From positions 1 through 64,000 of the IMG/VR virus record IMGVR_UViG_3300029288_004137: a stretch of DNA of 64,000 nt; one strand, written 5' to 3'. Made by a program: the position numbers and the translations under genes. Each line of letters starts with the position of its first letter. Position 1 is the stretch's first letter. Shown here in pieces: positions 35,156 to 63,866 of the stretch. Below the pieces are notes generated by a model. It worked only from the letters and a program-made list of their open reading frames with translations. It was not told the DNA's origin and searched no databases. This DNA comes from a virus (taxonomy: Duplodnaviria; Caudoviricetes).

Positions 35156-35313
35156 TGAACACAAGATACGAACTTATTAATCTTATTAAAGAACTTAATC
35201 ATTATGGTGCCAATATTCATATTGAAAAAGATCTTAACAATAATAATCAAAAACCTATTTTAAATAAAAAAGAAGATACAGTTGAATGGATTAATAAAAT
35301 TGAACTTGATTAA
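35155..35313 (+). pseudogene. repeat-deleted paralog of ankyrin gene 35327-35974 (52 aa)
   Basis: MNTRYELINLIKELNHYGANIHIEKDLNNNNQKPILNKKEDTVEWINKIELD: similar N-cap, identical C-tail, no repeats. Confidence 0.65.
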
Positions 35314-35326
35314 AAGGAAAAAAATA

Positions 35327-35974
35327 ATGAGTATTAAAGAAAAAAATATTTTCAATATGAGCACAAAATACGGACTTGTTAATCTTATTAAAGATCTTAA
35401 TGATTATGGTAACAATATTCAGTATGATCATGGTTATGCTTTACAATTGGCAGCACGACTTGGTCGTCTTGATATGGTTAAATATCTGATTGATATTGGT
35501 GCTGATATTCATGTTTTGAATGATTATGCTTTACGATGGGCAGCATCAAAAGGTTATCTTGATCTGATTAAATATCTGGTTGAAAATGGTGCTGATATTC
35601 ATACTGAAAATGATTATGCTTTACAATTGGCAGCACAACTTGGTCGTCTTGATATGATTAAATATCTGGTTGAAAATGGTGCAAATATTCATACTTATGA
35701 TGATTCTGTTTTACAATATGCAGCACTAAATGGACATCTTGATATGGTTAAATATCTGGTTGAAAATGGTGCTAATATTCATGCTGAAAATAATAAAGCT
35801 TTAAAATGGGCAGCTGAAAAAGGTCATTATGATATTGTTGAATATCTTAAAGATTTTAATAACAATAAACTTATTGAGGAAAGTAAAGAAGATCTTAACA
35901 ATAATAATCAAAAACCTATTTTAAATAAAAAAGAAGATACAGTTGAATGGATTAATAAAATTGAACTTGATTAA
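35327..35974 (+). CDS. ankyrin-repeat protein
   Basis: About five 30-aa repeats ALxxAA..G.LD.VKYLVE.GA.IH; start moved to the SD-preceded ATG. Confidence 0.9.
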   Translation: MSIKEKNIFNMSTKYGLVNLIKDLNDYGNNIQYDHGYALQLAARLGRLDMVKYLIDIGADIHVLNDYALRWAASKGYLDLIKYLVENGADIHTENDYALQLAAQLGRLDMIKYLVENGANIHTYDDSVLQYAALNGHLDMVKYLVENGANIHAENNKALKWAAEKGHYDIVEYLKDFNNNKLIEESKEDLNNNNQKPILNKKEDTVEWINKIELD

Positions 35975-35990
35975 AAGGAAAAGAAAAGTA

Positions 35991-36413
35991 ATGAATAAAC
36001 ATACTGACATTGAAACTCAATTCAATGCTACTCTTGAATATGCAGTACGACAAAATTATTTTGATGCTGTCAAATTTCTTGTTGAAAATAATACTAATAA
36101 TTATAACTTTAATACTGCACTTTTATATGCAGCAATTTATTGTGATCTTGATGTTGTCAAATATCTGGTTGAACATGGTGCTGATATTCATTCTGATGAT
36201 GAACATATTTTGCGAATCGCAGTGAAATATGAGCGTTTTAATATTGTTAAATATTGTATTGAACAAGGTGCTAATGTTCATGTAAGGAATGATGAAACAT
36301 TACGATGGGCAAAGAAACGGGGTAATGATAAAATTATTAAATATCTTTCTATTCAAGGTGATAAATATCTTTGTAGAGAAATTGATCTTGAAGATAATCC
36401 AAAACTTAACTAA
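35991..36413 (+). CDS. ankyrin-repeat protein
   Basis: [15 protein letters not shown]; start moved. Confidence 0.85.
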   Translation: MNKHTDIETQFNATLEYAVRQNYFDAVKFLVENNTNNYNFNTALLYAAIYCDLDVVKYLVEHGADIHSDDEHILRIAVKYERFNIVKYCIEQGANVHVRNDETLRWAKKRGNDKIIKYLSIQGDKYLCREIDLEDNPKLN

Positions 36414-36425
36414 AAGGAGAAAAAA

Positions 36426-36809
36426 ATGAAAATTACTAGTGCTCTTAAGACTCTTGAAAAAATGGGGTATAATGTTCGTTTTAAAGGTAATCACTATTGG
36501 GTTACTGTTGGAGACAACACTATTGATATGTTTACATCAAGTGTTGGTGAAGTTCGAGATATCCGAGCATTTAGAGTCAGAAAATCTAATGAAACTGATG
36601 ATCTAAGTGGTGCTTTTGCCGGAACATTTGAATTAAATCTCTCACAATCTTTGAAGAAACTTGGTCTTCCTGGAAATCTTTCTGAGATGAAGAAACTTCT
36701 TTCAAAAGAAACAAAAATTAATTCCGATCTTTCTGAAAAAGTTGAAGAAATAGCACCACATGCTGAATGTGCCCTCAAGGATGCTATGGATAATGGAATT
36801 GAATATTAA
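36426..36809 (+). CDS. hypothetical, paralog of 38515-38892
   Basis: MK..A...LE..GY N-terminus. Confidence 0.6.
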   Translation: MKITSALKTLEKMGYNVRFKGNHYWVTVGDNTIDMFTSSVGEVRDIRAFRVRKSNETDDLSGAFAGTFELNLSQSLKKLGLPGNLSEMKKLLSKETKINSDLSEKVEEIAPHAECALKDAMDNGIEY

Positions 36810-36838
36810 CTTCTTAAGTAAAAGAATAATAAAAGAAT

Positions 36839-37144
36839 TTGATGGAACAAATATATACAGACCATGAAATGGAACAAATGTATAAAGACTATGATCTAGG
36901 CATGGCATCATATTATAATAAGATCGAATCTGTTATACAATTAATTAATGATGGTGCTAATTATCATGTTGATAATGATTATCCCTTAAGAGTTGCATCA
37001 ATTTATGGTAATTTTGATATTGTCAAATATTTAATTCCTTTGTATAATAATAAAGAAGAATTAAAAACATTGTTTTTTAGAGTTAATAACTTTTATGTTA
37101 AATATCTAATTTTGGAAAGATTATATGAATTACAAAAATTCTAG
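36839..37144 (+). CDS. ankyrin-repeat protein with conserved LILERLY tail
   Basis: One repeat plus tail. Confidence 0.8.
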   Translation: MMEQIYTDHEMEQMYKDYDLGMASYYNKIESVIQLINDGANYHVDNDYPLRVASIYGNFDIVKYLIPLYNNKEELKTLFFRVNNFYVKYLILERLYELQKF

Positions 37145-37667
37145 ATTTATTGAAGCAGTTAAAACTAATAATTTTCAGCAAGTTAAAGAATGTATTGAAG
37201 AAGGTATAGATATTCATGCTGACAAGGATTACGCTTTACGATATGCAGCAGAACGTGGTCACTTTGATATGGTTAAATATTTAGTTGAAAATGGTGCTGA
37301 TATTCATGCTTGTTATGATGCTGCTTTTAGATTTTCAGCGGAGAATAATCATTTAAATGTTGTCAAATATCTTGTTGAAAATGGTGCTGATATTCATAAT
37401 GATGATAATAATGTTATACGATTAGCAGCAGAATATGGATATTTCGAAATTGTTAAATATTTAATGGAAAAAGGTACTTATAATTATGCTGACAACAATT
37501 GTATTTTAGAATATGCAATAGAATTTAAACATTTTGATATTATTAGATATTTAATTCCTTTATATTCTAAATCGGAATTAAAAGAATTGTTTTTAAAAAT
37601 TAATAATTTCTGTGTCAAATGTTTGATATTGGAAAGGTTATATAATGGATCTTTTTGTTGCAATTAG
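37125..37667 (+). CDS. ankyrin-repeat protein with LILERLY tail
   Basis: About four repeats plus tail. Confidence 0.9.
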   Translation: MNYKNSRFIEAVKTNNFQQVKECIEEGIDIHADKDYALRYAAERGHFDMVKYLVENGADIHACYDAAFRFSAENNHLNVVKYLVENGADIHNDDNNVIRLAAEYGYFEIVKYLMEKGTYNYADNNCILEYAIEFKHFDIIRYLIPLYSKSELKELFLKINNFCVKCLILERLYNGSFCCN

Positions 37668-38070
37668 AAGAAACGATCTTCAGCAAGTTAAAGAATGTAT
37701 TAAACATGATGTTAATATTCATTATGATAAAGGTAATGCTTTACGATATGCAGTAGATAATGGTTGTTTTGAAATTGTTAAATATCTGGTTGAATATGGC
37801 ACTGATATTCATATTTGGAATGATTATCCTTTACGAATTGCAGCACTTTATGGTTATTCTGATATTGTTAAATATCTTGTTGAGCATGGTGCTGATATTC
37901 ATGCTGATAATGATTATGCTTTACGATGGGCAGCAAATAAGGGTCATTTTGATATTGTTAAATATTTAATTCCTTTGTATAATAATAAAGAAGAATTAAA
38001 AACATTGTTTTTTAGAGTTAATAACTTTTATACTAAATTCTTAATTTTAGAACAATTATATGGAACTTAA
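37645..38070 (+). CDS. ankyrin-repeat protein with LILE tail
   Basis: About three repeats plus tail. Confidence 0.9.
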   Translation: MDLFVAIRRNDLQQVKECIKHDVNIHYDKGNALRYAVDNGCFEIVKYLVEYGTDIHIWNDYPLRIAALYGYSDIVKYLVEHGADIHADNDYALRWAANKGHFDIVKYLIPLYNNKEELKTLFFRVNNFYTKFLILEQLYGT

Positions 38071-41445: not shown

Positions 41446-42915
41446 ATGAAAAATATTAAAAAAGAATCAAATTTTATTCTTGATGATCATATTGCTTCTG
41501 CTTTAAAAGATGAAGAATTCTTTAGATGTCTATCTTTAAGAATTAACAAAAGAATTGATTATACAATCCCCACTGCTGGAGTGAGAATTGATAAGAGAAC
41601 AATGAACTTTGTTCTTGCATACAATCCGCTTTTTCTAGAATTATTAACTCAAGAAGAAGTTAGAGCAGTCCTTTCTCATGAATTTCTTCATATTTCTCTT
41701 GGACATGTTACTAAAGAAATAGTACATGAAAAAACACGTAATAATTTTATTGCTTTACATCATAAAAGAAATATAGCATTTGACTTATCAATAAATACAC
41801 ATTTGAAAAATTTTCCAGAAACAATAAAAATCCCAGATGCTAATGGAAAAGAAAAAATTGGATATAGTTGCATTCCTGGAAAAAATCAATATATTGATCT
41901 CCCTAAAAATTTAACATCAGATCAATATTTTTCTCTCCTACCTGATCCAGTTTGCATTTTTTCAAAATTGTTAAAAAATGCAGACAAGAATGGTCAGAAT
42001 GATCAAAGTGGTGAGAATGGCGAAAATAATCAAAATGGTAAAGGTAGTGAAGGTAGTGAAGGTAGTGAAGGTAGTGAAGGTAGTGAAGGTAGTGAAGGTA
42101 GTGAAGGTAGTGAAGGTAGTGAAGGCAGTGAAGGCAAAGACTCTCAGGGTTCTTCTGGAGATGATAAAGCACCTGCCTGTATTGGATGTGGAACTTGTTG
42201 TAATCAGGTTGGAGATCATGATTGGGGTGATTTGACTCAAGAAGAAAAAGAAATTCTTGAGAACAGAAGACTTCAAATTATTAGAAAAGCTGTGCAAGAT
42301 TCTAATTATAGATGGGGGACAATACCCAAAGAAGTCAGTGAAGAAATAATTAAACAAATTTCTAACAAAATTAACTGGAGATCTTTATTAAGATATTTTG
42401 TTAAATGTAATAGAAAAGCAGATAAAATTTCTTCTATTAAATCAATAAATAAAAGATTTCCGTATATTCATGCTGGAAAGAAAAGAACAAGAATGGCGAA
42501 TATTGCTGTTTCATTTGATGAATCTGGATCTGTAGATGATGAAATGTTGTCATTGTTTGCAGCAGAATTATCAAAACTTGTTCAAATAGCGTCATTTACT
42601 CTTATTCCATTTGACTATACAGTAGATGAAGAGAATATTTCTGTGTGGAAAAAGAATGATAAGTTCGAATTAAAAAGAACAAGGTCAGGTGGTACAAATT
42701 TTGATGCACCAACAGTTTATGTTAATGAACATAGAGAATTTGACGCTCATATAATTTTAACAGATTTAGAAGCTCCACAACCAACATTTTCAAAAGTACC
42801 TAGATTGTGGATAACTGATTCTGATCATGCAGAATCCCCTTATTTTAAACCTGAAAAAGAAAAGTTAATCGTAATAGAAAAAGATAAATGTATACAAATC
42901 TCTTTGAAGCAGTAA
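41446..42915 (+). CDS. DUF2201-type metallopeptidase plus vWA-like protein (MoxR partner)
   Basis: PTAGV, HEFLH, NIAFD.SIN; DESGS, GGTNF, LTD. Confidence 0.88.
   Translation: MKNIKKESNFILDDHIASALKDEEFFRCLSLRINKRIDYTIPTAGVRIDKRTMNFVLAYNPLFLELLTQEEVRAVLSHEFLHISLGHVTKEIVHEKTRNNFIALHHKRNIAFDLSINTHLKNFPETIKIPDANGKEKIGYSCIPGKNQYIDLPKNLTSDQYFSLLPDPVCIFSKLLKNADKNGQNDQSGENGENNQNGKGSEGSEGSEGSEGSEGSEGSEGSEGSEGSEGKDSQGSSGDDKAPACIGCGTCCNQVGDHDWGDLTQEEKEILENRRLQIIRKAVQDSNYRWGTIPKEVSEEIIKQISNKINWRSLLRYFVKCNRKADKISSIKSINKRFPYIHAGKKRTRMANIAVSFDESGSVDDEMLSLFAAELSKLVQIASFTLIPFDYTVDEENISVWKKNDKFELKRTRSGGTNFDAPTVYVNEHREFDAHIILTDLEAPQPTFSKVPRLWITDSDHAESPYFKPEKEKLIVIEKDKCIQISLKQ
42043..42132 (+). repeat. in-frame 9-bp tandem repeat (GGTAGTGAA)x10 encoding (GSE)10
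   Basis: Direct reading; last unit is GGC. Confidence 0.95.
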
Positions 42916-43142
42916 GGAATAACGACCTTCAACAAGTTAAAAGATCCATTGAAAATAATACTGATATTCATGCTGCTAATGATTATGCTTTAAGCTGGGC
43001 AGCATATTTCGAACATTTTGATATTGCTAAATATTTAATTTCTTGTTATTCTAATATAGAATTAAAAAAAATATTTTCTCAATTCAATAATTTTTATGTT
43101 AAATCCTTAATCTTGGAAAGGTTATATAATGGATCTCAATGA
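42888..43142 (+). CDS. ankyrin cassette
   Basis: N-cap, one repeat, LILERLYN tail. Confidence 0.85.
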   Translation: MYTNLFEAVRNNDLQQVKRSIENNTDIHAANDYALSWAAYFEHFDIAKYLISCYSNIELKKIFSQFNNFYVKSLILERLYNGSQ

Positions 43143-43680
43143 TAAAATTAGAAATGATAATCTCAATCTTTTTGATGCAGTTGAAAATAACAATCTCCAG
43201 AAAGTTAAAGAACTTGTTGAACTTGGTGCAGATATTCATGCTGATGATGATTGGTCTTTAAGACATGCAGCAGAACATGGTTATTTTTATATTATTAAAT
43301 ATCTTATTGATCTTGGTGCTGATATTCATACCAATAATGATTGGCCTTTAAGATATGCAGCAGAATTTGGTCGTCTTGATATTGTAAAATATTTAGTTGA
43401 ACATGGTGCTGATATTCATGCTTTTGATAATTGGACTTTAATATGGACAGCACAAAAAGGTTATTTCGATGTTGTCAAATATCTCATTGAACATGGTGCT
43501 GATATTCATATAGATAATGATTATCTTTTACGATGGATAGCAAAACATGGACATCTTGATGTTGTTAAATATTTAATTCCTTTATATAAAAAATCAGAAT
43601 TAAAAAATTTTTTTTCTCGAATTGATAGTTTTTATGTTAAATTTCTAATCTTAGAAAGGTTATATAATGACTCTTATTGA
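43129..43680 (+). CDS. ankyrin cassette
   Basis: About four repeats plus tail. Confidence 0.9.
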   Translation: MDLNDKIRNDNLNLFDAVENNNLQKVKELVELGADIHADDDWSLRHAAEHGYFYIIKYLIDLGADIHTNNDWPLRYAAEFGRLDIVKYLVEHGADIHAFDNWTLIWTAQKGYFDVVKYLIEHGADIHIDNDYLLRWIAKHGHLDVVKYLIPLYKKSELKNFFSRIDSFYVKFLILERLYNDSY

Positions 43681-44005
43681 TGCAATTAGTATAAACGACC
43701 TTCAACAAGTTAAAGAATGCATTGAAAATGGTGCTGATATTCATGCTCATGATGAGTATGCTTTAAAATATGCAGCAATGTATGGTTATTTGAATATTGT
43801 TAAATATCTTGTTGAGCATGGTGCTGATATTTATGCTCTTGATAATTATACTTTAAAATGGGCAACATATTTTGAACATTTTGATGTTATCAAATATTTA
43901 ATTTCTTTATATAATAAAGAAGAATTGAGAAAATATTTTTCTCAATTCAATTTTTTTTATATTAAATACTTAATCTTGGAAAGGTTATATGATAAGCCTC
44001 AATGA
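43667..44005 (+). CDS. ankyrin cassette
   Basis: About two repeats plus tail. Confidence 0.9.
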   Translation: MTLIDAISINDLQQVKECIENGADIHAHDEYALKYAAMYGYLNIVKYLVEHGADIYALDNYTLKWATYFEHFDVIKYLISLYNKEELRKYFSQFNFFYIKYLILERLYDKPQ

Positions 44006-44534
44006 AGCAGTTAGAAATAACGATCTTCAACAAGTTAAACGCATTGTTGATAGATACATTGTTGGTAATTTTTTGAATCGTAAAGATTTTTTTAATCAAA
44101 AAGATGAAGCTTTAATAATTGCATCAGATAATGGATATTTGGATATTGTTAAATATTTAGCTGAGCATAATGCTGATATCCATGCACATGATGATATTGC
44201 TTTACGGTGGGCAGTAGAAGGAAGTCATTTTGATGTTGTTAAATATCTGGTTGAACAAGGAATTAACATCCATCGAGATTGTGATGATATTATAACAAGT
44301 GCGGCAGGTCAAAAAAATCTTGAAATTCTCAAATATTTGGTTGAACATGGTGTTAATATTCACGCTTCTAATGATTATGCTATAGAGTATGCAGTAGAAA
44401 ATGATAGATTAGATAATTTTAAATATTTAATTTCTTTATTCACAAAAACAGAATTAATAAAATTACTCCTTCAATATAAAGGACTCTATATTAATTTTTT
44501 AATCTTGGAAAGGTTATATAATGGATCTTATTGA
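43989..44534 (+). CDS. ankyrin cassette
   Basis: About four repeats plus tail. Confidence 0.9.
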   Translation: MISLNEAVRNNDLQQVKRIVDRYIVGNFLNRKDFFNQKDEALIIASDNGYLDIVKYLAEHNADIHAHDDIALRWAVEGSHFDVVKYLVEQGINIHRDCDDIITSAAGQKNLEILKYLVEHGVNIHASNDYAIEYAVENDRLDNFKYLISLFTKTELIKLLLQYKGLYINFLILERLYNGSY

Positions 44535-44802
44535 TGCAGTAAGAAATAATAATTTTCAACAAATTAAATATCTTGTTGAGCATGGTGCTGATATTCGTAT
44601 TTGGAATGATTATCCTTTACGAATTGCATTAGATTATGATCATTTTGATATTGTTAAATATTTAATTTCTTATTATTCTGATACGGAATTAAAAACATTA
44701 TTTTCTTATTATTCTGAGATGGAATTAAAAAAATTAATTTCTCAAAGAAATAGTTTTTATGTTAAATTTTTAATCTTGGAAAGATTTTATGAAAAAAAAT
44801 GA
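44521..44802 (+). CDS. ankyrin cassette with duplicated tail segment
   Basis: SYYSDTELK / SYYSEMELK duplication. Confidence 0.85.
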   Translation: MDLIDAVRNNNFQQIKYLVEHGADIRIWNDYPLRIALDYDHFDIVKYLISYYSDTELKTLFSYYSEMELKKLISQRNSFYVKFLILERFYEKK

Positions 44803-45034
44803 TTTAATAATGATTAGCTTTAAACAATCTATTGGTCTTGGTCTTGCTGGTGTTTTTGCTTCAAATATAAAAAATACATCATCGCTTTTGATATCAAAAC
44901 CTAGGTATGTTATTTTTCTTCATATTGACAAAGGTACAATAAACAGAATAAAATATTTATATTTCTTTGATATTTTAACAAAAGAAAATTTTAAAATACC
45001 ACTTTATAAATCATTATTAATAAGGAAAAAATAA
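44789..45034 (+). CDS. non-ankyrin hypothetical inserted in the array
   Basis: Starts in the conserved junction. Confidence 0.5.
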   Translation: MKKNDLIMISFKQSIGLGLAGVFASNIKNTSSLLISKPRYVIFLHIDKGTINRIKYLYFFDILTKENFKIPLYKSLLIRKK

Positions 45035-45274
45035 ATGTATACAAGTCTTATGACCTATGGTTCTACAAAAAAAGAAGTACTCGATCTTCTTTTAAAACAA
45101 ATACCAAATTTATACGCAGAAATATCTATTAATCTTTTATGCCTTCAAGATCCACGAGCAACCCATTTGTCAGATTATGAAACAAGTTTGCGAAACAATT
45201 CACAAGTCACTTGGAAAGCTTCTTTAGATTATATTTATGAATTCTCAAAAGAAGAAAATAATGATAAATCATAA
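45035..45274 (+). CDS. non-ankyrin hypothetical inserted in the array
   Basis: SD AAGGA; followed by an orphan junction. Confidence 0.6.
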   Translation: MYTSLMTYGSTKKEVLDLLLKQIPNLYAEISINLLCLQDPRATHLSDYETSLRNNSQVTWKASLDYIYEFSKEENNDKS

Positions 45275-45335
45275 TCTAAACAATCTTCAATAAATAAATT
45301 TTATATCAAATGCTTAATCTTAGAAAGGTTATATA

Positions 45336-45596
45336 ATGAATCTCATTGAAGCAGTTGAAAATAATAATTTTCAGCAAGTTAAAGAATACATTAAATATGG
45401 CGCTGATATTCATATTGATAACAATTATGCTTTACGATATGCAGCACTAAATGGTTATATTAATATTGTTAAATATCTTATTAAATATGGTGCTGATATT
45501 CATGCTATTAATGATAATACCATAAATTGGATAACAGAATTTGGTCATTTTGATATTGTCAAATATTTTATTACTTTATATTCTGATACAGAATAA
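45336..45596 (+). pseudogene. ankyrin cassette with premature stop (TTA>TAA in ELK)
   Basis: GAA TAA AAA where paralogs have GAA TTA AAA; tail sequence retained to about 45660. Confidence 0.75.
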
Positions 45597-45660
45597 AAAG
45601 AATTAATTTTTAAACTTAATTCTTTTTATGTTAAATGCTTGATCTTAGAAAGGTTATATA

Positions 45661-46089
45661 ATGAATCTCATTGATGCAGTTGATAATAATGATATTCAAC
45701 AAGTTCAACATTTTGTTGAACAAGGTGATGATATTCATATTTATAATGATCTTGCTTTACGATTAGCAGCATTAAATGGTCATTTTGAAATTGTTAAATA
45801 TTGTATTGAAAATGGTGCTGATATTCATGCCGCTTATGATAATGCTTTACGAGGATCAGCAAAAAATGGACATTTTGATGTTGTTAAATATTGTATTGAA
45901 AATGGTGCTGATATTCTTGCTATTGATCATTATATAATGAGCATAGCTGTTAATAAAAATTATTTTGATGTTGTTAAATATTTAATTCCTTTATATCCAA
46001 TATCAGAATTAAAAGAATTGTTTTCTGAAATTGATAATTTCTATATCAAATTCTTAATCTTAGAAAGGATATTTAATGAATCTCAATGA
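45661..46089 (+). CDS. ankyrin cassette
   Basis: About three repeats plus tail. Confidence 0.9.
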
Positions 46090-46864
46090 AGCAATTATAA
46101 ATAACAATTTCCAGCAAGTTAAAGAATGTATTGAACATGGTGCTGATATCCATGCTCAAGATGAATATGCTTTAAAATATACAGCAATGTATGGTCATCT
46201 TGATATTGTTAAATATCTTGTTGAACTTGGTGCTGATATCCATGTTCAAGATAATCTTCCTTTAAGATACGCAGCAGAAAATGGACATCTTGATATTGTT
46301 AAATATCTGGTTGATCTTGGTGCTGATATTCATGCTCTTGACAATAGTGCTTTAAGATATGCAGCACCAAAAGGCCATTTTGAAATTGTTAAATATTTGG
46401 TTGACCTTGGTGCTGATATTCATGCTCAAGATGAATATGCTTTAAAATATACAGCAATGTATGGTTATTTGAATATTGTTAAATATCTGGTTGAACTTGG
46501 TGCTGATATTCATATTCAAAATGATATTACTTTAAGATATGCAGCGGAATTTGGATGGCTTAATATTGTTAAATATCTGGTTGAACTTGGTGCTAATATT
46601 TATGCTGCTGATGATTGTGCTTTACGATGGGCAGCAAAAAATGGACATCTTGATGTTGTTAAATATCTGGTTGATCTTGGCGCTAATATTCATGCTCAAA
46701 ACGATTATCCTTTACAATGGGCAGCAGGATTTGATCATTTTAATGTTGTTAAATATTTAATTCCTTTATATAAAAAATCAGAATTAAAAAAATTGTTTCC
46801 TTATATTGATAACTTCTATGCTAAATTCTTAATCTTGGAAAGATTATATAATGCAACTCAATGA
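46076..46864 (+). CDS. ankyrin cassette (longest)
   Basis: About seven repeats plus tail. Confidence 0.92.
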
Positions 46865-47378
46865 AGTGGTTGATAATAATGATTTTCAACAAATTAAAGA
46901 ATGTATTGAAAATGGTGCTGATATTCATTTTTGGAATGATTATGCTTTAAGAAGAACAGTAGAATATGGTCGTCTTGATGTTGTTAAATATTGTATTGAA
47001 CATAATGCTGACATTCATGTTTTAAGTGATCTTCCTTTACGATTAGCAGCATTAAATGGACATCTTGATATTGTTAAATATCTGGTTGAACATGGTGCTG
47101 ATATTCATATTTGGACTGATTGCCCTTTACGATTAGCAGCAGAATGTGGTTGTCTTGATGTTGTTAAATATTTTATTGAACTTGGTGCTGATATTCATGT
47201 TATTAATGATTACGCTTTAAGATATACAGTATATAATGAACATTTTGATGTTACTAAATACTTAATTTCTTTCTATTCTGATATAGAATTAAAAAAAATA
47301 TTTTCGCAGATCGATAATTTTTATATTAAATACTTAATTTTGGAAAGGTTATTTAATGAATCTCATAGATGCAGTTAA
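46851..47378 (+). CDS. ankyrin cassette
   Basis: About four repeats plus tail. Confidence 0.9.
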   Translation: MQLNEVVDNNDFQQIKECIENGADIHFWNDYALRRTVEYGRLDVVKYCIEHNADIHVLSDLPLRLAALNGHLDIVKYLVEHGADIHIWTDCPLRLAAECGCLDVVKYFIELGADIHVINDYALRYTVYNEHFDVTKYLISFYSDIELKKIFSQIDNFYIKYLILERLFNESHRCS

Positions 47379-47850
47379 TAATAATGATCTTCAACAAGTT
47401 AAATGTCTTGTTGAAAATGGTGCTGATATTCATGCTCAAGGTGATTGTGCTTTATGTCTTGCAGCAGAATATAGTCATCTTGATATTGTTAAATATCTTA
47501 TTGAACATGGTGCTGATATTCATGCAAATGCAGAACATGGACATCTTGATATGGTTAAATATCTTATTGAACATGGTGCTGATATTTATACTCTTAATGA
47601 TTGGCCTTTAAGATGGGCAGTAGAATATGGACATTTTGATGTTGTTAAATATTTGATTGAACATGGCGCTAATATTCGTATTTGGAATGATTATCCTTTA
47701 CGAATGGCATTAGATTATGATCATTTTGATATGGTAAAATATTTACTTTCTTATTATCCTGATACGGAATTAAAAAAATTGTTTTCTAAAACTGATAGTT
47801 TCTATGTTAAATTTCTAATCTTAGAAAGATTATACAATGAGTCTCATTGA
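47356..47850 (+). CDS. ankyrin cassette
   Basis: About four repeats (one internally deleted) plus tail. Confidence 0.9.
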   Translation: MNLIDAVNNNDLQQVKCLVENGADIHAQGDCALCLAAEYSHLDIVKYLIEHGADIHANAEHGHLDMVKYLIEHGADIYTLNDWPLRWAVEYGHFDVVKYLIEHGANIRIWNDYPLRMALDYDHFDMVKYLLSYYPDTELKKLFSKTDSFYVKFLILERLYNESH

Positions 47851-48184
47851 TGCAGTTTATAATAATGATCTTCAACAAGTTAAATGTCTTGTTGAAAATG
47901 GTGTTAATATTCATGTTGACAATGATATATCTTTAAGACATTCAGCACGACATGGTTATATTGATATTGTAAAATATCTTGTTGAGCATGGTGCTAATAT
48001 TCATACCGATAATGATGAGCCTTTATATTTTGCAGTATATTACAATCATTTTGATATTATCAAATATTTAATTTCTTTATATTCAATATCAGAATTAAAA
48101 GAATTAATTTTTAAATTTGATTCTTTTTATGTTAAATTCTTAATCTTAGAAAGGTTATATAATGAATCTTATAGATGCAGTTAA
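47837..48184 (+). CDS. ankyrin cassette
   Basis: About two repeats plus tail. Confidence 0.9.
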   Translation: MSLIDAVYNNDLQQVKCLVENGVNIHVDNDISLRHSARHGYIDIVKYLVEHGANIHTDNDEPLYFAVYYNHFDIIKYLISLYSISELKELIFKFDSFYVKFLILERLYNESYRCS

Positions 48185-48689
48185 TAACAATGATCTTCAA
48201 CAAATTAAATGTCTGGCTGAAAATGGTGCTGATATTCATTGTGAAAATGATTATGCTTTAAGAAGTGCAGCATATCTTGGACATCTTGATATTGTTAAAT
48301 ATCTGATTGAACATGGCGCTAATATTCACGTTCAAGATGAACTTCCTTTAAGATTTGCAGCATGTAATAATTATTTTGATATGGTTAAATATCTGGTTGA
48401 GCATAACGCTAATATTCACGTTCTTGATGATTATCCTTTACATTGGACAACAAAAAATGGATATTTTGATATTACTAAATATCTGATTGAACATGGTGCT
48501 AATATTTATGCTGAAAATGATAAAGCTTTAAAATGGGCAGCAGAATTTGGACATTTTGATATTGCTAAATATTTAATCTCTTGTTATAAAGAATCAGAAT
48601 TAAAAAAATTGTTTTCTAAAACTGATAGTTTCTATGTTAAATTCTTAATTTTAGAAAGGTTATATAATGAATCTCATAGATGCAGTTGA
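48162..48689 (+). CDS. ankyrin cassette
   Basis: About four repeats plus tail. Confidence 0.9.
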   Translation: MNLIDAVNNNDLQQIKCLAENGADIHCENDYALRSAAYLGHLDIVKYLIEHGANIHVQDELPLRFAACNNYFDMVKYLVEHNANIHVLDDYPLHWTTKNGYFDITKYLIEHGANIYAENDKALKWAAEFGHFDIAKYLISCYKESELKKLFSKTDSFYVKFLILERLYNESHRCS

Positions 48690-49014
48690 TAATAATGATC
48701 TTCAACAAGTTAAATGTTTGGTTGAAAATGATGCTGATATTCATGTTTATTATGAAGAACCTTTACGATTGGCAGTATATAATAATTATTTTGATATTGT
48801 TAAATATCTGGTTGAGCACGGCGCTAATATTCGTGCCAGTTGTGATTGGCCATTAAAATGGGCGTTTCAGTATGGTTATTTTAATATTGTTAAATATTTG
48901 ATTTCTTGTTATAAAAAATTTGAATTAAAAGAATTGTTTTCTGAAATCAATAGTTTTTATATTAAATACTTAATATTAGAAAGGTTATATAATGAATCTT
49001 TATGTTGCAATTAA
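48667..49014 (+). CDS. ankyrin cassette
   Basis: About two repeats plus tail. Confidence 0.9.
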   Translation: MNLIDAVDNNDLQQVKCLVENDADIHVYYEEPLRLAVYNNYFDIVKYLVEHGANIRASCDWPLKWAFQYGYFNIVKYLISCYKKFELKELFSEINSFYIKYLILERLYNESLCCN

Positions 49015-49333
49015 AAAAAACGATCTTCAAAATGTTAAAAAATATCTTAAAGAAGAAAATGAAAATAATTATAATTTAATTCTACGATATGCAATATTAT
49101 ATGGTAATCTTGGTATTATTAAATATCTGATTGAAAATGGTGCCAATATTCATACTAGTATTGATTATCCTTTAAGACATGCAGCAAAACGTGGTTATTT
49201 TGATGTTGTTAAATATTTGATTTCTTGTTATTCCGATATAGAATTAAAAACATTATTATTTGAAGTTGATAACTTCTATGTTAAATTCTTAATTTTAGAA
49301 TTTTTTCAGAAAAAATTTTCAAAAAATATTTGA
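48992..49333 (+). CDS. ankyrin cassette (last of array)
   Basis: About two repeats; tail diverges after LILE and the AAAGG SD is lost. Confidence 0.88.
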   Translation: MNLYVAIKKNDLQNVKKYLKEENENNYNLILRYAILYGNLGIIKYLIENGANIHTSIDYPLRHAAKRGYFDVVKYLISCYSDIELKTLLFEVDNFYVKFLILEFFQKKFSKNI

Positions 49334-49387: not shown

Positions 49388-49627
49388 TGCAAAATACGTG
49401 CCAACCGTCTAGGTGTACCTAGTACCGGGGGGGTGTCTCATTATACCACATTGCTTTTCACTTGTCAAGAAAAATCGACATGGCATAGTTATTGCATATT
49501 GCTTTTTATTGTCATTGTTCCTTCACTGTTTATGCTCTAAGCATACCATACCTCGAAATGATTGTCAAGAAAAATCGACATGGCATGGTGATTGCATACT
49601 GAAGATGTATATGCAATCACCGTGCCA
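49388..49627. promoter_or_regulatory. four sigma54 -24/-12 consensus boxes
   Basis: 49388-49403(-) TGGCACGTATTTTGCA; 49481-49496(+) TGGCATAGTTATTGCA; 49581-49596(+) TGGCATGGTGATTGCA; 49612-49627(-) TGGCACGGTGATTGCA. Confidence 0.75.
49440..49468 (-). promoter_or_regulatory. perfect sigma70 promoter firing toward the end of the ankyrin array
   Basis: TTGACA-17-TATAAT with TGn extension. Confidence 0.8.
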
Positions 49628-55559: not shown

Positions 55560-55637
55560 GTTTTTTTCAATCCGTTCATGTTTATGCTCTAAGCATAGCA
55601 TGATTTGAAGGCAATGTCAAGGAAAAAACGAATGGAA

Positions 55638-56015: not shown

Positions 56016-56152
56016 TTTTATATCTCCTTCAATTTTTAATAAGAGAAGCAATAAAGTTCTTGAAATTTAATTCTTCTTTTTTTCTCTCTTCAATCAATCG
56101 TTCATGCTCCAAGCATAACATGATTTGAAGGCAATGTCAAGAGAAAAGATCA

Positions 56153-56452
56153 TCAAAGATCATCTAGATCATTACGAATTATATTGAATACTCCATTCTG
56201 GAAATGGAATCTCAAGAAGGGCAACATACTAAAAGTAAATTGATTCAATTCCTTTTCACTGAAAAGGGTAAACCGGATTGTTTGAAAAGGTACGAGATTG
56301 ATCGAAGTATCCTTTGAACAATAGGAAACATACATAAACTCAAATTCTTGTTTTACTTCAATTGATTGTTCGTTTACGGAAACGATAACCGTTTGTTTGT
56401 CTTTAAATTGAATTTTGAGATCAATATACTTTATTTCAGTATTATTATTCAT
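56153..56452 (-). CDS. IEYK/LNQF family paralog
   Basis: Paralog of 53577. Confidence 0.7.
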   Translation of the reverse strand: MNNNTEIKYIDLKIQFKDKQTVIVSVNEQSIEVKQEFEFMYVSYCSKDTSINLVPFQTIRFTLFSEKELNQFTFSMLPFLRFHFQNGVFNIIRNDLDDL

Positions 56453-56561
56453 TTTATTTTATGTACCTTTTTTCATGTTCTTCTTTAATCGTTCATGCTC
56501 TAAGCATAGCACAATTCGAGTGCAATATCAAGGAAAAAGTGAATGATTTATATTTCCTTTT

Positions 56562-57698
56562 TTATTGTGCTTTGAAGTTAAAGACTGGTTTCATAATGAA
56601 TTCGATATCTACAGTATCTTTGATAGAATCAATTATTCTTTGAGAATCTTTATATGCCATAGGGCTTTCATCGAGTGTATCTTTTGATATACACTTTGAC
56701 CATACATTTTCCATTGTCTTTTTAAAGGTATCCAAAGACAATGTTTTTTTGGCTTTGGATCTTGCGAGGATTCTTCCTGCTCCATGAGGAGCTGAATAAT
56801 TCCATTCTATATTTTCTTTTCCTTTTCCAATAATAATCCCATCTCTCATATTCAATGGGATTATTAAGTTTTGTCCTTTATAAGCAGATATGGCACCTTT
56901 CCTGATAATTGCTATATCTTTTTGGAATTCGATATAATTGTGGATAGATTCTATTTTAGTTCTAATTCCTTTTTGATTAAAGAAATCAATTAAAATCTTT
57001 TCTGCAATCAGTGCTCTATTAAGTTTAGCATATGCTTGAGCAATGATCATATCATCGAAGTATGCTTGTGCTTCTTTTCCTGTTAAATACTCAAGATTTG
57101 AAACACAAGGATAATTTTTAATTTCTTTGGCAATTGCTTGATGGAAATTAGCAATTCTAAGTCCAAAGTTTCTTGATCCGGTATGGATTGTAAGCCACAA
57201 TCTATCTTGATCATCTTTATCTATTTCAATAAAATGATTTCCACCTCCAAGTGTCCCCAAAGAGCACAAAACATTTTCAATGTTTTGTTCGGTACGACAA
57301 GAAATCTTTTTGATATCAGAATCAAGATAAAAATCTAATACTTCTTTAGGATTAGAATGTTTATTGAATCCTGAAGGAACGTTTTCAATAAGAAAATTAT
57401 GAAAACGCTCAAAATCTATTTCTTTCTTATCATTAATTAAATAAGAAGATACACCGCAACCAATGTCAACCCCCACAATATTCGGGATTATAATTGGTTT
57501 GAGTATGTTAATTATTGAAGTAAACCCAATACAAGATCCACTTCCTGAATGACAATCAGGCATGATTGAAATCTTGCTATCCTTAAAAACAGGATGATTT
57601 ATAAATGTTGATATTTGTTTTGAAGTTTCTTCTTCAAGATCTGAATAATCTTCTAACATAACATCTGCATTTGTATATTTCCCTTCAATTTTTAACAT
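56562..57698 (-). CDS. rtcB: RtcB 3'-phosphate RNA ligase
   Basis: MPDCH, VGVDIGCG, GTLGGGNHFIE, HTGSR, HNY, RKGA, SAPHGAGR, DESP.AYK. Confidence 0.95.
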   Translation of the reverse strand: MLKIEGKYTNADVMLEDYSDLEEETSKQISTFINHPVFKDSKISIMPDCHSGSGSCIGFTSIINILKPIIIPNIVGVDIGCGVSSYLINDKKEIDFERFHNFLIENVPSGFNKHSNPKEVLDFYLDSDIKKISCRTEQNIENVLCSLGTLGGGNHFIEIDKDDQDRLWLTIHTGSRNFGLRIANFHQAIAKEIKNYPCVSNLEYLTGKEAQAYFDDMIIAQAYAKLNRALIAEKILIDFFNQKGIRTKIESIHNYIEFQKDIAIIRKGAISAYKGQNLIIPLNMRDGIIIGKGKENIEWNYSAPHGAGRILARSKAKKTLSLDTFKKTMENVWSKCISKDTLDESPMAYKDSQRIIDSIKDTVDIEFIMKPVFNFKAQ

Positions 57699-57740
57699 TT
57701 TATATTTTTCTTTTTCCTTTGGATTATAATTGTTTTTTTC

Positions 57741-57931
57741 AAGTTAAAAATAGAATTCAAGGATAATCACATGTATTTATTAACGATTTTCATCTTTTTT
57801 CACACTCATATAAGATTTGAAAAAGTATCAACTTCAGAAAACAATTTTTTTAATTCTATATCAGAATAATAAGGAATAAAAATGTAAATCTTATATCTGC
57901 AAGGATTATCCTTGAATTCTATTTTTAACTT
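57741..57931 (-). ncRNA. long-stem structured RNA A (28-bp perfect IR) carrying ankyrin-tail sequence in a loop
   Basis: Arms 57741-57768/57904-57931; inner stem 57808-57818/57886-57896; homologous to 63597-63866; strand inferred from the homolog. Confidence 0.65.
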
Positions 57932-57981
57932 TTCAAAGAACAAATAACAATATTATTGATTTGTTTCTTTTCAACGAAAAA

Positions 57982-58341
57982 TTAATATTAACAAGAGGTT
58001 TTTACTAAGTATAAACAAGTTCAGTTAAAAAGACAGCTCGATCAAATCTTTAAGATTTGAACCTTTTAACAAGAGACTAATATTGTTTAAACGTCACTTG
58101 AAAAGAGAATGATAAATTTCCTCTTTCAAAGAAAAGAAATTGTTTTGTCTTTTAGGTAAATTATTTATACCATTATATTTTAAAACTTCCGGCTGTTAAA
58201 ACATATTATAACAAAGAGAGATTTATCAAAATATATTGAAAGTTATAAAATTGTATAAATCTTTAATAAAATATATCAATAAACAATTTGATTATATTTT
58301 CTACTCTTTGTTTTTTAGTAAAAACCTCTTGCTAATATTAA
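57982..58341 (-). ncRNA. long-stem multibranched RNA B (27-bp IR)
   Basis: Arms 57982-58008/58315-58341 with a G.U pair on the minus strand; several inner hairpins. Confidence 0.6.
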
Positions 58342-58535
58342 CTTCTCAAATAACAAATACAAGATTTTTCTTCTTCTTTTTCTTCTTCTTCTTCTATTTC
58401 GCTCATTAATTGATCAATTTCATATTCATTATCTGTAATTTCAGTAGTAAGACGTGAAATTTCTTCTTCAATTCTGGAATTTCTTGCTTCCAAAATCTCC
58501 AATTTTATTGTAAGCTTAATAATAGAATCTTTCAT
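58338..58535 (-). CDS. acidic coiled-coil protein
   Basis: Own promoter and SD. Confidence 0.65.
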   Translation of the reverse strand: MKDSIIKLTIKLEILEARNSRIEEEISRLTTEITDNEYEIDQLMSEIEEEEEKEEEKSCICYLRS

Positions 58536-58628
58536 TTTATAAACCTTTCTTTTTTATGTTTTCTCAATCGTTCATGCTCTAAGCATAGCACACTTAAAAC
58601 ATGAAGTCAAGAGAAAAAGCACTATGCA

Positions 58629-58907
58629 TTATATTTTTTTATAGTCAAGAGAAAGGAAAAAATTAATTGGCAATGTGATTGTATTAAATGATATATTGAA
58701 AGTATTTTCCATATGCTCTATTATATTTTCCAGCATATCATTAACTGAAATTTCAGGAATATCAGCATTATTTATCCGATCTATATCTGGATAATCACCG
58801 CGAAAAATTTCACACAACTCTATTGATCCATCATTTACATTAGCTTTAATACAAATGGATATTCCATTAGTCATCTGAATAGTCGTTTTCATCGAAAAAA
58901 CTTGCAT
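58629..58907 (-). CDS. triplet paralog 3
   Basis: IELCE..GD..PDI..EHM...F..ITLPI.FF. Confidence 0.75.
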   Translation of the reverse strand: MQVFSMKTTIQMTNGISICIKANVNDGSIELCEIFRGDYPDIDRINNADIPEISVNDMLENIIEHMENTFNISFNTITLPINFFLSLDYKKI

Positions 58908-58944
58908 TTGTTATTTTCCTTCTTTTATCTTTTTTTTTGTTGTG

Positions 58945-59262
58945 TTATGATGGATTTATTGATATATATTCATAATCCATTCGAGGTATAACATTAATAA
59001 GAAAAAAATCAATTGGCAATGTGATTGTTTCAATTGAAACATCGAAATTGAGTTTCATATGTTCTTTGATATTATTCAATAGATCATAAATTGTAAATCC
59101 AGTAAGATTAACATTGTTTAACCAATTGATATCTGGAGAAGCAAGATCACCATGAACAACTTCACACAATTCTATTGTGTTGTCCCTTGTATTAACTATA
59201 ACATTAATTTTAATTTCACTATTTACTCGAATAGTCATTTTTATTGAAGAAATTTGTTGCAT
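58945..59262 (-). CDS. triplet paralog 2
   Basis: Same motifs. Confidence 0.75.
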   Translation of the reverse strand: MQQISSIKMTIRVNSEIKINVIVNTRDNTIELCEVVHGDLASPDINWLNNVNLTGFTIYDLLNNIKEHMKLNFDVSIETITLPIDFFLINVIPRMDYEYISINPS

Positions 59263-59324
59263 TTATTATTTCTCTTCTTTTTTTATCTTTTTTTTTCGTT
59301 GTGTTATGATGGATTTAATATATA

Positions 59325-59612
59325 TTATTCATGATCCATTCGAGGTACAACATTAACAATAAAAAAACCAATTGGCAATATGATTTTTTCAATTGAAACA
59401 TCGAAATTGAGTTTCATATGTTCTTTGATATTATTCAATAGATCATAAATTGTAATTCCAATATCAGCATTTAACCAACTGATATCTGGAGAACCAAGAT
59501 CACCACGAACAACTTCACACAATTCTATTGAATTGTCCCTTGCATTAGCTATAACATTAATTTCAATTTCACTATTTACTCGAATAGTCATTTTCATCGA
59601 AGAAACTTGCAT
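59325..59612 (-). CDS. triplet paralog 1
   Basis: Same motifs. Confidence 0.75.
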   Translation of the reverse strand: MQVSSMKMTIRVNSEIEINVIANARDNSIELCEVVRGDLGSPDISWLNADIGITIYDLLNNIKEHMKLNFDVSIEKIILPIGFFIVNVVPRMDHE

Positions 59613-59640
59613 TTGTTATTTTCCTTCTTTATCTTTTTAA

Positions 59641-59895
59641 TTATTCTGGCATGATAGCTTTTAGAATTTGATCTGTCAAAACATCAATAACTTCTTCGCA
59701 TTTGTCTCTTTTATCGCTAAGAACACGAATTTTTTCTTTCATAGCAATTATTTCATTATCAAAGAGGAACATTTGTGTTTTATAAGATTTTACTCTAGTG
59801 AGCAATCCTAGAGATTGATCTTTTTCCTCTCGTGTAAGATCAATTTTCAAAACTTTCGACATGGATTCATCATTTTCTTGTATAAAATTTTCCAT
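59641..59895 (-). CDS. hypothetical protein
   Basis: ORF with SD. Confidence 0.65.
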   Translation of the reverse strand: MENFIQENDESMSKVLKIDLTREEKDQSLGLLTRVKSYKTQMFLFDNEIIAMKEKIRVLSDKRDKCEEVIDVLTDQILKAIMPE

Positions 59896-59918
59896 TTCTT
59901 TTTCCTTTGGTGGTGAAT

Positions 59919-60311: not shown

Positions 60312-60326
60312 TTCTTTGTCCTATTG

Positions 60327-60893: not shown

Positions 60894-60911
60894 AATAAAA
60901 ACCCCTCTTTT

Positions 60912-61967: not shown

Positions 61968-62052
61968 AAATAAAGTTAAGATACGAAGTCCTAAAATGCC
62001 CTACAATTGATTTGTTTTAGGGTTTAGGTAAAAAAATATCTTAACTTTATTT
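61968..62052 (-). ncRNA. short AAAGTTAA-stem element F immediately 5' of tRNA-Arg
   Basis: 16-bp IR AAATAAAGTTAAGATA/TATCTTAACTTTATTT. Confidence 0.45.
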
Positions 62053-62370: not shown

Positions 62371-62616
62371 AAAGTTAATATTAGGAAGAGATTTATATCA
62401 AGTATGAATATTAAAGATAAAGGTTTCTTTCTCTCTCAGCTCAAAGAACTTCGCTTTTCTTAAGAATATTTCATACCATCACAATACAAGACGACTAGTA
62501 TTTCCGTTATATTGTGTTCTAACGAAGAATAACATTATTCATATACTGAGATGATACATGATATAACGTATCTTTTCTTGGCTTTTTAATATAAATCTCT
62601 TCCTAATATTAACTTT
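62371..62616 (-). ncRNA. long-stem structured RNA C (28-bp perfect IR) with own promoter
   Basis: Arms 62371-62398/62589-62616; TTGACA-17-TATGAT at 62627-62655. Confidence 0.7.
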
Positions 62617-62691: not shown

Positions 62692-62870
62692 GGATAGAGA
62701 AAAGGGAACAATTAACAATTAGTTTATATTTCAAAATTAAATTTCAACCATCAAGCAATTAATGAAATTGCGGAACGTGGTATCACAGTTTAATTTTGAC
62801 TAATTTCAATATGGGTAATTAATCCATATATCCCTCATTAAAAACGAGAATTGTTCCCCTTTCTCTATCC
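62692..62870 (-). ncRNA. long-stem structured RNA D (22-bp IR) with own promoter
   Basis: G.U pair on the minus strand; TTGACA-17-TATGCT at 62879-62907. Confidence 0.65.
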
Positions 62871-63596: not shown

Positions 63597-63866
63597 AAGT
63601 TAAAAATAGGATTCAAGAATAAACTTGTATTTATTAGCGATTTCTCCTCAATATCTAAAAAGTGCCCCTTACCACAAAATTGGTATTATTGACTTTTAAT
63701 TGAGAAGAAACCTGGCATATAGTGTGCCCCGTACTCCCATCGTTTTTATCATTAACCGATCTTTTGACAAGAGATGTTCTATACACTTCAAGATTTGAAT
63801 TTAAAATCTACAAAACAATTCAAGTCTTATATCTGCAAGTTTATTCCTGAATCCTATTTTTAACTT
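63597..63866 (-). ncRNA. long-stem structured RNA E (31-bp IR) with own promoter, 5' of tRNA-Ala
   Basis: Arms 63597-63627/63836-63866; TTGACA-17-TATGAT at 63878-63906. Confidence 0.7.

What the first reader, a model, noticed from the sequence alone, without database searches (positions are those of the whole stretch)
57808..57896. A structured RNA displays a consensus-like copy of the ankyrin cassette tail in its loop
Seen: the 67-nt loop of an 11-bp hairpin inside element A reads, on the minus strand, TTTATTCCTTATTATTCTGATATAGAATTAAAAAAATTGTTTTCTGAAGTTGATACTTTT (FIPYYSDIELKKLFSEVDTF). It matches ankyrin tails 8-20 kb away as a mosaic: 24 nt exact at about 47274, 21 nt at about 47767, 15 nt at about 44669 and 11 nt at about 49261. 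The homologous hairpin in element E carries an unrelated 15-nt loop, so the scaffold is constant and the loop is exchangeable. The matched site lies just upstream of the cassette junction/RBS. Inference: a programmable guide, template or decoy RNA tied to the ankyrin array. As a sense RNA it could pair with DNA for shuffling or conversion, or decoy crRNAs. As a plus-strand RNA (TATAAT at 57725) it would be one antisense regulator for all paralogs. No RT or recombinase is visible in this window.
Basis: partly seen in the sequence, partly recalled or inferred. Interest (0 to 1): 0.88.

Follow-up and report, generated by a model that had tools for sequence, protein, structure and literature searches.

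The report
Phage RNAs displaying own ankyrin sequences
An uncultured 210-kb phage has a family of hairpin-closed non-coding RNA genes among its tRNAs. Two of them carry short same-sense copies of the phage's own 30-member ankyrin gene family, most likely as decoys that soak up complementary RNA, an arrangement I could not match to any described RNA family.

Summary
The match is real: loop 66 bits against at most 41 in 300 shuffles, with 20 hits against at most 2. Element A is one of at least seven long-stem RNA genes in the phage's tRNA and RNA-repair region.

All 8 wobble positions in their closing stems are G-U on the minus strand, and paralogous stems show compensatory changes. The predicted RNA is therefore minus-strand and carries ankyrin mRNA sense, so it cannot be an antisense regulator. 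A second member, F (genome 66106-66362, beyond the window), carries four 28-37-nt tiles covering most of the 90-nt ankyrin repeat. A and F are the only ankyrin copies away from the gene arrays.

The 'mosaic/consensus' look is ordinary for this family. There is no reverse transcriptase, no adenine-specific change and no A/F-specific allele in any gene, which argues against a DGR or retron template.

Best reading (0.40): a stable sense decoy that binds antisense-ankyrin RNA, either from a perfect promoter at 49468 aimed into the array or from host guides. Captured cargo (0.28) and a DNA-pairing guide (0.17) remain open. No diverged relative or RNA data exist to test this. The scan noted it only on this genome.

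The parts
57741..57931 (-). Element A: 191-nt predicted ncRNA closed by a perfect 28-bp stem; paralog of E, lacking most of E's 3' domains
   Evidence: fold z -7.7
57808..57896 (-). Inner 11-bp helix (57808-57818 / 57886-57896), homologous to E's first hairpin
   Evidence: sequence; p 0.26 in full A, about 0.8 in the released interior
57820..57881 (-). 60-62-nt same-sense copy of the ankyrin C-terminal tail coding sequence, confined to the loop
57932..57946 (-). boxA-like motif running straight into the 5' arm of A; the same pattern occurs only before B and F in the whole genome
   Evidence: 3 hits, pattern chosen post hoc; 11 of 13 matches to the B. subtilis boxA consensus in PMC13753749
57979..58344 (-). 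Element B: 30-bp closing stem, multibranched interior, no ankyrin cargo; paralog of D
58338..58610 (-). sigma70 promoter (58610) and 65-aa ORF upstream of B, A and rtcB; likely source of the A transcript (inferred)
56562..57698 (-). RtcB RNA ligase gene, 43 nt downstream of A
   Evidence: Pfam PF01139 E 2e-62
61968..62052 (-). Element C: short stem-closed unit directly 5' of tRNA-Arg
62371..62616 (-). Element D: 31-bp closing stem with its own sigma70 promoter (62655); no ankyrin cargo
62692..62870 (-). Further stem-closed block behind the promoter at 62907; no ankyrin cargo
63597..63866 (-). Element E: 270-nt structured paralog of A with its own promoter (63906), directly 5' of tRNA-Ala. The family continues beyond the window with F (genome 66106-66362, 5' of tRNA-Trp), which carries four ankyrin tiles
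49433..49468 (-). Perfect 12/12 extended sigma70 promoter with no ORF of 50 or more codons after it, pointing antisense into the 3' end of the main ankyrin array
42888..49333 (+). Main ankyrin array (30-aa repeats plus a family-specific tail), the source family of the cargo
35282..38070 (+). Second ankyrin cluster; three genes carry the same tail

Best explanation
A is a predicted stable non-coding RNA made from the minus strand, built like a miniature rRNA precursor: a boxA-like signal followed by a long helix joining its 5' and 3' ends. It arose from an E-like scaffold whose apical loop was replaced by 60 nt of ankyrin tail coding sequence. Sister RNA F presents four overlapping tiles of the ankyrin repeat. 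Because the cargo has mRNA sense, its only pairing partners are antisense-ankyrin nucleic acids. Most likely A and F are decoys (sponges) that bind antisense-ankyrin RNA and so protect about 30 ankyrin mRNAs at once. The bound RNA is either the phage's own convergent transcript from the promoter at 49468 or host guide RNAs (for example type III/VI crRNAs) aimed at this highly repeated family. SHOWN in sequence: homology and its significance, strand of the fold, scaffold paralogy with compensatory changes, a second carrier, specificity for ankyrins, and the antisense-facing promoter motif. INFERRED: expression, Nus loading, RNase III processing, read-through into the array, pairing in vivo, and who the partner is.
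For: Strand: 185 Watson-Crick, 8 G-U and 0 A-C pairs in the closing stems on the minus strand. Two-sided compensatory changes: A/E 2, B/D 4. Minus-strand promoters. Specificity: away from the arrays, the only significant ankyrin-like DNA lies in A and F. Ankyrin genes are 6.3% of the genome, and B, C, D, E and other blocks match nothing clearly above shuffles. Cargo-bearing interiors are unstructured relative to shuffles (A z +0.24, F z +0.98), while cargo-free ones are structured (B -3.7, E -2.8). F tiles at offsets 42-77, 31-66, 14-48 and -5 to 23 cover 82 of the 90 nt of the repeat and are joined by linkers with little or no gene similarity. Pairing is energetically plausible: loop with antisense tail down to -56 kcal/mol, against -23 at best with the mRNA. 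A 12/12 promoter fires towards the array, the first tail it would cross (49216-49271) is a joint-best match to A, and one search lists no strong terminator in between. The neighbourhood is an RNA-conflict toolkit: RtcB, Rnl1, a second RNA ligase, a cREC domain, an RNase T-like enzyme and 22 tRNAs. Type III systems preferentially take spacers from early phage genes (PMC13575424).
Against: No conservation test is possible. All other assemblies are identical over the elements, and the nearest capsid relatives (50-55% identity) lack ankyrins and such stems. The cargo is not optimised: it is no closer to consensus than a typical paralog and shows no consistent wobble bias in either orientation. A true mRNA duplex (-76 to -92 kcal/mol) outcompetes A, so the decoy would need to be far more abundant. 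The 11-bp display helix is weak in the unprocessed RNA. The promoter at 49468 may serve an origin or DNA-entry role, or be silenced by Rho. The host and its immune systems are unknown.
Confidence: 0.4

Rival explanations
1. Captured cargo without a pairing role. The scaffolds are tRNA-cluster stable RNAs, or decaying copies of them, and the ankyrin pieces were picked up by recombination because ankyrin DNA is the most repeated and mobile sequence in the genome. F would be a deletion-ridden remnant of a four-repeat gene.
For: A looks like any paralog in identity and mosaicism. F1-F3 lie in one frame with a single stop and can be aligned collinearly to tandem repeats with deletions. F1's private changes are all synonymous, as expected for a former coding sequence. 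Orphan ankyrin fragments exist at 35163-35230, 45294-45333 and in ORF 51415-51630. The array recombines: a 481-nt deletion variant occurs in another assembly. A has lost most of E's structured 3' domains.
Against: Two separate captures are both ankyrin (6.3% of the genome), both in RNA sense and both inside closing stems. A's stem is still perfect over 28 bp and F's over 34 bp with two G-U pairs. The tiles are 80-91% like consensus while adjacent linkers are not recognisable. Cargo boundaries coincide with the helix ends.
Confidence: 0.28
2. DNA-pairing guide. The sense RNA invades ankyrin genes and pairs with the template strand (R-loop), helped by the phage RecA/UvsX or an unrecognised RNA-guided protein. 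This would focus recombination on conserved repeat cores and tails, damp transcription, or attack related ankyrin-rich phages.
For: The orientation fits. RecA/UvsX is present. The one observed array crossover lies in the 11-nt repeat core covered by tiles F1 and F2. Tile length is about 35 nt. Every tile differs from all own genes at near-invariant positions, as expected if the real target is a relative.
Against: No TnpB/Cas12f, IS110, Nop, Piwi or integrase gene was found. The crossover site is simply the most conserved homology, which ordinary recombination explains. No related phage carrying the A or F alleles was found.
Confidence: 0.17
3. Template for reverse transcription (retron- or DGR-like donor), copied by a host RT and used to convert or diversify ankyrin tails.
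For: The layout resembles a retron ncRNA or an engineered retron donor: terminal inverted repeats, an inner hairpin with a donor-sized loop, and a long 3' hairpin in E. A sense copy of C-terminal coding sequence is the DGR orientation.
Against: No RT by PF00078, phrog_1423, NF038233 or a six-frame motif screen. Template adenines are kept in 78% of target positions, C and G in only 34-45%, the opposite of DGR. A-specific codons occur in 0 of 21 tails and several F-specific codons in 0 of 40 repeats. The longest shared tract with a gene is 24 nt, less than genes share with each other.
Confidence: 0.07
4. Plus-strand antisense RNA that silences all ankyrin paralogs.
For: TATAAT at 57725. The antisense loop would pair with mRNAs at down to -51 kcal/mol. 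Some F changes (C for T) would be G-U wobbles in this orientation.
Against: No -35 element. On the plus strand the 8 stem wobbles become A-C mismatches. B, D, E and F fold 12-23 kcal/mol better on the minus strand. The site does not cover the RBS.
Confidence: 0.04
5. A encodes a 45-aa TTG-start peptide carrying the tail as a dominant-negative mimic.
For: An open frame from 57943 runs through the tail, and 18 of its 20 tail codons encode residues seen in paralogs.
Against: There is no Shine-Dalgarno upstream, the start lies in the boxA-like motif, the frame runs through a perfect 28-bp stem, and the most conserved end of the tail is missing.
Confidence: 0.04

Closest known systems
Stable RNAs of unknown function in phage tRNA regions: T4 RNAC and RNAD (described as of unknown function in PMC9697503); GOLLD/ROOL RNAs (location and GOLLD/ROOL from own knowledge)
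   Same: Structured non-coding units interleaved with phage tRNA genes; several abut a tRNA 5' end that RNase P could cut.
   Different: No Rfam match at E up to 1; a paralogous family with 28-34-bp closing stems; two members carry coding sequence of a phage gene family, which I did not find described.
Pre-rRNA layout: boxA plus leader-trailer helix processed by RNase III (PMC10250234; B. subtilis boxA in PMC13753749)
   Same: A boxA-like motif followed at once by a roughly 30-bp helix that brackets the cargo RNA.
   Different: The cargo is 135-300 nt and not rRNA; NusB binding and RNase III cleavage are untested; no phage RNase III was found.
RNA sponges and decoys: bacterial and prophage anti-sRNAs, P1 c4 decoy sites, RNA anti-CRISPRs (Racr), pseudo-ToxI (own knowledge)
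   Same: A non-coding RNA mimics something to titrate an RNA or ribonucleoprotein.
   Different: Racr mimics the CRISPR repeat and pseudo-ToxI an antitoxin. Here the mimic is 28-60 nt of the phage's own paralogous coding sequence, and no partner has been identified.
Diversity-generating retroelements (TR/VR; PMC3240598 abstract)
   Same: A sense non-coding copy of C-terminal coding sequence shared by several target genes.
   Different: No RT and no adenine-specific mismatches.
Retron ncRNA (msr-msd), including engineered donors (own knowledge)
   Same: Terminal inverted repeats enclosing hairpins, with a donor-like loop.
   Different: No RT gene adjacent or elsewhere in the genome; no sign of transfer into genes.
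IS110 bridge RNA, TIGR-Tas, TnpB/TldR guides (own knowledge)
   Same: A constant scaffold with exchangeable target-matching loop sequence.
   Different: No cognate protein was found; the homology is one long same-strand tract rather than paired 9-11-nt top- and bottom-strand guides.

Membership tests
DGR template RNA | TR/VR differences confined to TR adenines | tested here: not met
   A kept 78%, T 79%, C 34%, G 45% across 22 tails
DGR template RNA | Cognate reverse transcriptase | tested here: not met
   an RT supplied by the host cannot be excluded
DGR template RNA | Sense copy of the 3' coding region of target genes | tested here: met
Retron | Terminal a1/a2 inverted repeats around hairpins | tested here: met
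Retron | Retron-type RT next to the ncRNA | tested here: not met
   NF038233 and motif screen negative; the neighbour is RtcB
Retron | Branched msDNA made in vivo | not testable with these tools
   needs infected cells
IS110 bridge RNA / TIGR-Tas | DEDD recombinase or Nop-domain protein in the element | tested here: not met
TnpB/Cas12f or Argonaute guide | Cognate effector gene | tested here: not met
   (family models only; remote homologs could be missed)
Y RNA | Ro60 partner and YrlA model match | tested here: not met
   no TROVE gene; the only YrlA hit is sub-threshold and over tRNA sequence
Racr / CRISPR mini-array | CRISPR repeat units flanking or forming the RNA | tested here: not met
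   the linkers between F tiles are unrelated to each other
Any Rfam family | Covariance-model match at gathering score | tested here: not met
   only tRNAs reach threshold
MITE / DNA hairpin element | Strand-symmetric terminal repeats with a conserved interior | tested here: not met
   strand-asymmetric G-U pairs, covarying arms and unrelated interiors
boxA plus leader-trailer helix stable RNA | boxA-like motif directly before a closing helix of more than 17 bp | tested here: met
   A, B, F; consensus from PMC13753749; pattern defined post hoc
boxA plus leader-trailer helix stable RNA | NusB binding and RNase III processing | not testable with these tools
   needs biochemistry or RNA end mapping
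RNA sponge / decoy | Extended complementarity to an identifiable partner RNA | tested here: inconclusive
   complementary to predicted antisense RNA from the promoter at 49468; partner not shown to exist; no matching spacer found
RNA sponge / decoy | Expression and titration of the partner in vivo | not testable with these tools
   needs RNA data or culture

The most novel reading that the evidence does not exclude
The phage has a modular RNA display platform: rRNA-precursor-like scaffolds loaded with roughly 35-nt pieces of its most repeated gene family. These act either as sequence-programmed sponges against host guide RNAs (an RNA anti-CRISPR that mimics the target rather than the repeat) or as guides for an unrecognised RNA-guided process acting on a whole paralog family.
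Probability: 0.25. Interest if true: 0.9.

Novelty: new variant of a known kind. Interest (0 to 1): 0.66.

Why it matters
A family of about 30 paralogs with dozens of near-identical repeat units cannot escape a complementary guide or antisense RNA by point mutation. A stable RNA that displays the shared sequence would be a family-wide solution that I did not find described in phages. It would also give a first testable function to a member of the long-unexplained class of stable RNAs in phage tRNA clusters, and show a natural scaffold (boxA plus closing helix, swappable interior) usable for RNA display in bacteria. If it is only captured cargo, it still shows how such RNAs acquire gene fragments, which is of modest interest.

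Tried and rejected
Read-level evidence: the look-up of sequencing runs gave two DNA holders and no RNA holder listed.

Relatives: DNA patterns for the stems, scaffold motifs and A/F-specific alleles in IMG/VR, JGI metagenomes, GTDB and INPHARED gave nothing or chance hits. Tail-profile searches returned only this phage's proteins and generic ankyrins. RtcB relatives are at most 54% identical. Five capsid-related genomes show no similar elements, and 20 show no ankyrins.

Ideas tested and dropped: adenine mutagenesis; A as a super-consensus or special mosaic (a biased rank of 2/25 fell to 7/22 when tails were defined independently); a consistent G-U wobble signature; private F substitutions selected for internal structure (ddG -0.4 against -2.2 +/- 2.7 for random changes); cargo from other gene families in B, C, D, E or other blocks. 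An empirical boxA check in four unrelated genomes was uninformative. The Atlas search of the tail gave leads below 0.9 only. Paper searches found no description of this arrangement. Searches were input slips or unsupported requests.

Full report
Setting. The window is the first 64 kb of a 209,974-bp virus record of 27.7% G+C, rated 100% complete. It has a T4-like major capsid protein, sigma70 promoters and 22 tRNA genes. The host is unknown; the DNA holders are landfill and groundwater metagenomes. It encodes 31 ankyrin-family ORFs, and 21 of them end in a tail found in no other sequence I could search.

The observation. The 11-bp inverted repeat, the 67-nt loop and all four exact matches are at the stated places. 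The loop scores 66.2 bits with 20 hits of at least 36 bits; 300 dinucleotide shuffles reach at most 41 bits and 2 hits. Homology stops at the helix boundary. Two descriptive claims need softening. The loop is an ordinary-looking family member (mean identity 0.73, rank 7 of 22; best single tail 82%; mosaicism within the paralog range). The matched site ends 34 nt before the next start codon, clear of the Shine-Dalgarno.

The scaffold. A genome-wide inverted-repeat scan shows the longest end-to-end stems clustered between 57.7 and 66.4 kb: A, B, C, D, E, F, plus one block at 62692. A and E are paralogs, as are B and D. Their closing stems differ by two-sided compensatory changes (2 for A/E, 4 for B/D, 12 for A/D). 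Across seven stems there are 185 Watson-Crick pairs, 8 G-U and no A-C on the minus strand, so the structure is selected as minus-strand RNA (one-sided chance 1 in 256). D and E have their own sigma70 promoters on that strand. A, B and F instead begin with a boxA-like motif that occurs nowhere else in the genome (pattern chosen post hoc). In A it matches the B. subtilis boxA consensus at 11 of 13 positions (PMC13753749). boxA followed by a helix of about 30 bp bracketing the product is the layout of rRNA precursors (PMC10250234). C, E and F abut tRNA 5' ends. I infer stable, processed RNAs; none of this is shown at RNA level. Rfam has no family for them.

A second carrier. F (genome 66106-66362, outside the window) holds four sense ankyrin segments of 28-37 nt, with 31 BLAST hits against at most 3 in shuffles. 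They map to offsets 42-77, 31-66, 14-48 and -5 to 23 of the 90-nt repeat, overlapping and stepping backwards, and together cover 82 of 90 positions. Profile scans of the masked genome find ankyrin-like DNA away from the arrays only in A and F. B, C, D, E and other structured blocks match nothing clearly above shuffles. The two cargo-bearing interiors fold no better than shuffles (z +0.24, +0.98), whereas B and E do (z -3.7, -2.8). The display helix of A is weak in the full RNA (p 0.26) and forms well once the closing stem is removed (p about 0.8).

What a sense copy can do. The cargo has mRNA sense, so it pairs poorly with ankyrin mRNA (at best -23 kcal/mol) but can pair with antisense sequence (down to -56). 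Three partners are possible. (a) The phage's own antisense RNA. A 12/12 extended promoter at 49468 has no ORF after it and points into the 3' end of the main array. The first tail it would cross is a joint-best match to A, and no strong intrinsic terminator is listed between. It could instead serve an origin or DNA-entry role, or be stopped by Rho. (b) Host guide RNAs. The tiles are spacer-sized, the arrays sit behind sigma70 promoters, type III systems favour early genes (PMC13575424), and the region is rich in RNA-repair genes. No matching spacer was found in the limited pattern searches. (c) The template DNA strand, through an R-loop. RecA/UvsX is encoded, and an independent assembly shows a 481-nt deletion with its crossover in the repeat core covered by F1 and F2, but ordinary recombination predicts the same site.

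What it is not. It is not a DGR: there is no adenine-specific spectrum and no RT. It is not a retron by membership, although the layout resembles one: no retron RT, and the A- and F-specific alleles are absent or nearly absent from the genes, which argues against any donor role. No IS110, TnpB/Cas12f, Nop, Piwi, Ro60, integrase or RNase III gene was found. The plus-strand antisense model conflicts with the G-U evidence. The 45-aa frame has no ribosome-binding site and runs through the perfect stem.

The neutral rival. F1-F3 share one frame, F1's private changes are all synonymous, A is as divergent as any paralog, and ankyrin fragments are strewn near the arrays. Captured, slowly decaying cargo therefore remains a serious option. 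Against it: two captures are both from a family that is 6.3% of the genome, both in sense orientation and both inside intact stems, with conserved tiles joined by unrecognisable linkers. The decisive co-variation test could not be run. Every other assembly is identical over the elements, and the nearest relatives by capsid lack both ankyrins and the stems.

Verdict. The feature is real, part of a larger RNA family, and not a member of any family tested. It most likely works like an RNA sponge, here built from the phage's own paralogous coding sequence on an rRNA-precursor-like scaffold (0.40). Captured cargo (0.28) and a DNA-pairing guide (0.17) are the main rivals. I rate it a new variant of a known kind, interest 0.66, with a 0.25 chance of a categorically new RNA-programmed system. 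The score is held down by having a single genome and no expression data.

Noticed in passing
L001:6106-6362 (genome 66106-66362): Element F: 34-bp closing stem enclosing four overlapping sense tiles of the ankyrin repeat, directly 5' of tRNA-Trp and preceded by a G+C-rich hairpin (66366-66420).
   Followed up: yes
window 49330-50060: Three tandem leftward sigma70 promoters (50020, 49568, 49468); the last has no ORF and is followed by a C7 run, a small hairpin and an A+T-rich tract. Possible origin, DNA-entry end or antisense promoter.
   Followed up: partly
window 50040-51075: About 1 kb without a convincing ORF, with short direct repeats near 50060-50320, close to the switch of coding strand and GC skew; candidate origin or terminus region.
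   Followed up: no
L032:667-677 (genome 47073-47083 / 47554-47564): A JGI assembly of the same phage has a 481-nt deletion fusing ankyrin genes 46851 and 47356 into one intact gene, with the crossover in an 11-nt repeat core. It is a natural variant or an assembly artefact.
   Followed up: yes
window 51415-51630: 71-aa ORF with its own promoter and RBS, made of three tandem ankyrin-core fragments.
   Followed up: no
window 63522-63593 and 57808-57896: The 11-nt arm of A's inner helix also occurs in the anticodon arm of tRNA-Ala next to E; possibly chance in A+T-rich DNA.
   Followed up: partly
L001:6440-6760 and L001:9441-9780: Two further highly structured minus-strand blocks; the first starts with a boxA-like motif and has a weak, non-significant 24/30 sense match to the same ankyrin tail region.
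   Followed up: partly
window 57819-57826 and L001:6215-6295: The 3' flanks of A, F1 and F2 begin with CTTT or GTTT, like an anti-tag to common type III crRNA 5' tags; post hoc and weak in T-rich sequence.
   Followed up: no
L001:7221-8021: Intron-like insert between tRNA-Leu genes, with an apparent homing endonuclease ORF (67436-67888) on the opposite strand.
   Followed up: no
L169:171-7090 (genome 78171-85090): Tandem arrays of 14, 5 and 6 small Cys-rich paralogs; no non-coding copies of these families were found in the stem-closed RNAs.
   Followed up: partly
genome 109852 (L002:4852): Three other assemblies have one extra base here, joining ORFs 109831-110412 and 108905-109834 into one 502-aa DnaE piece, so the split in this record is probably an assembly error.
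   Followed up: partly
window 55227-61556 and L001:12146-15595: RNA-repair toolkit around the tRNA cluster: cREC receiver domain, RtcB, RNase T-like exonuclease, T4 Rnl1-like ligase and a second RNA ligase.
   Followed up: partly
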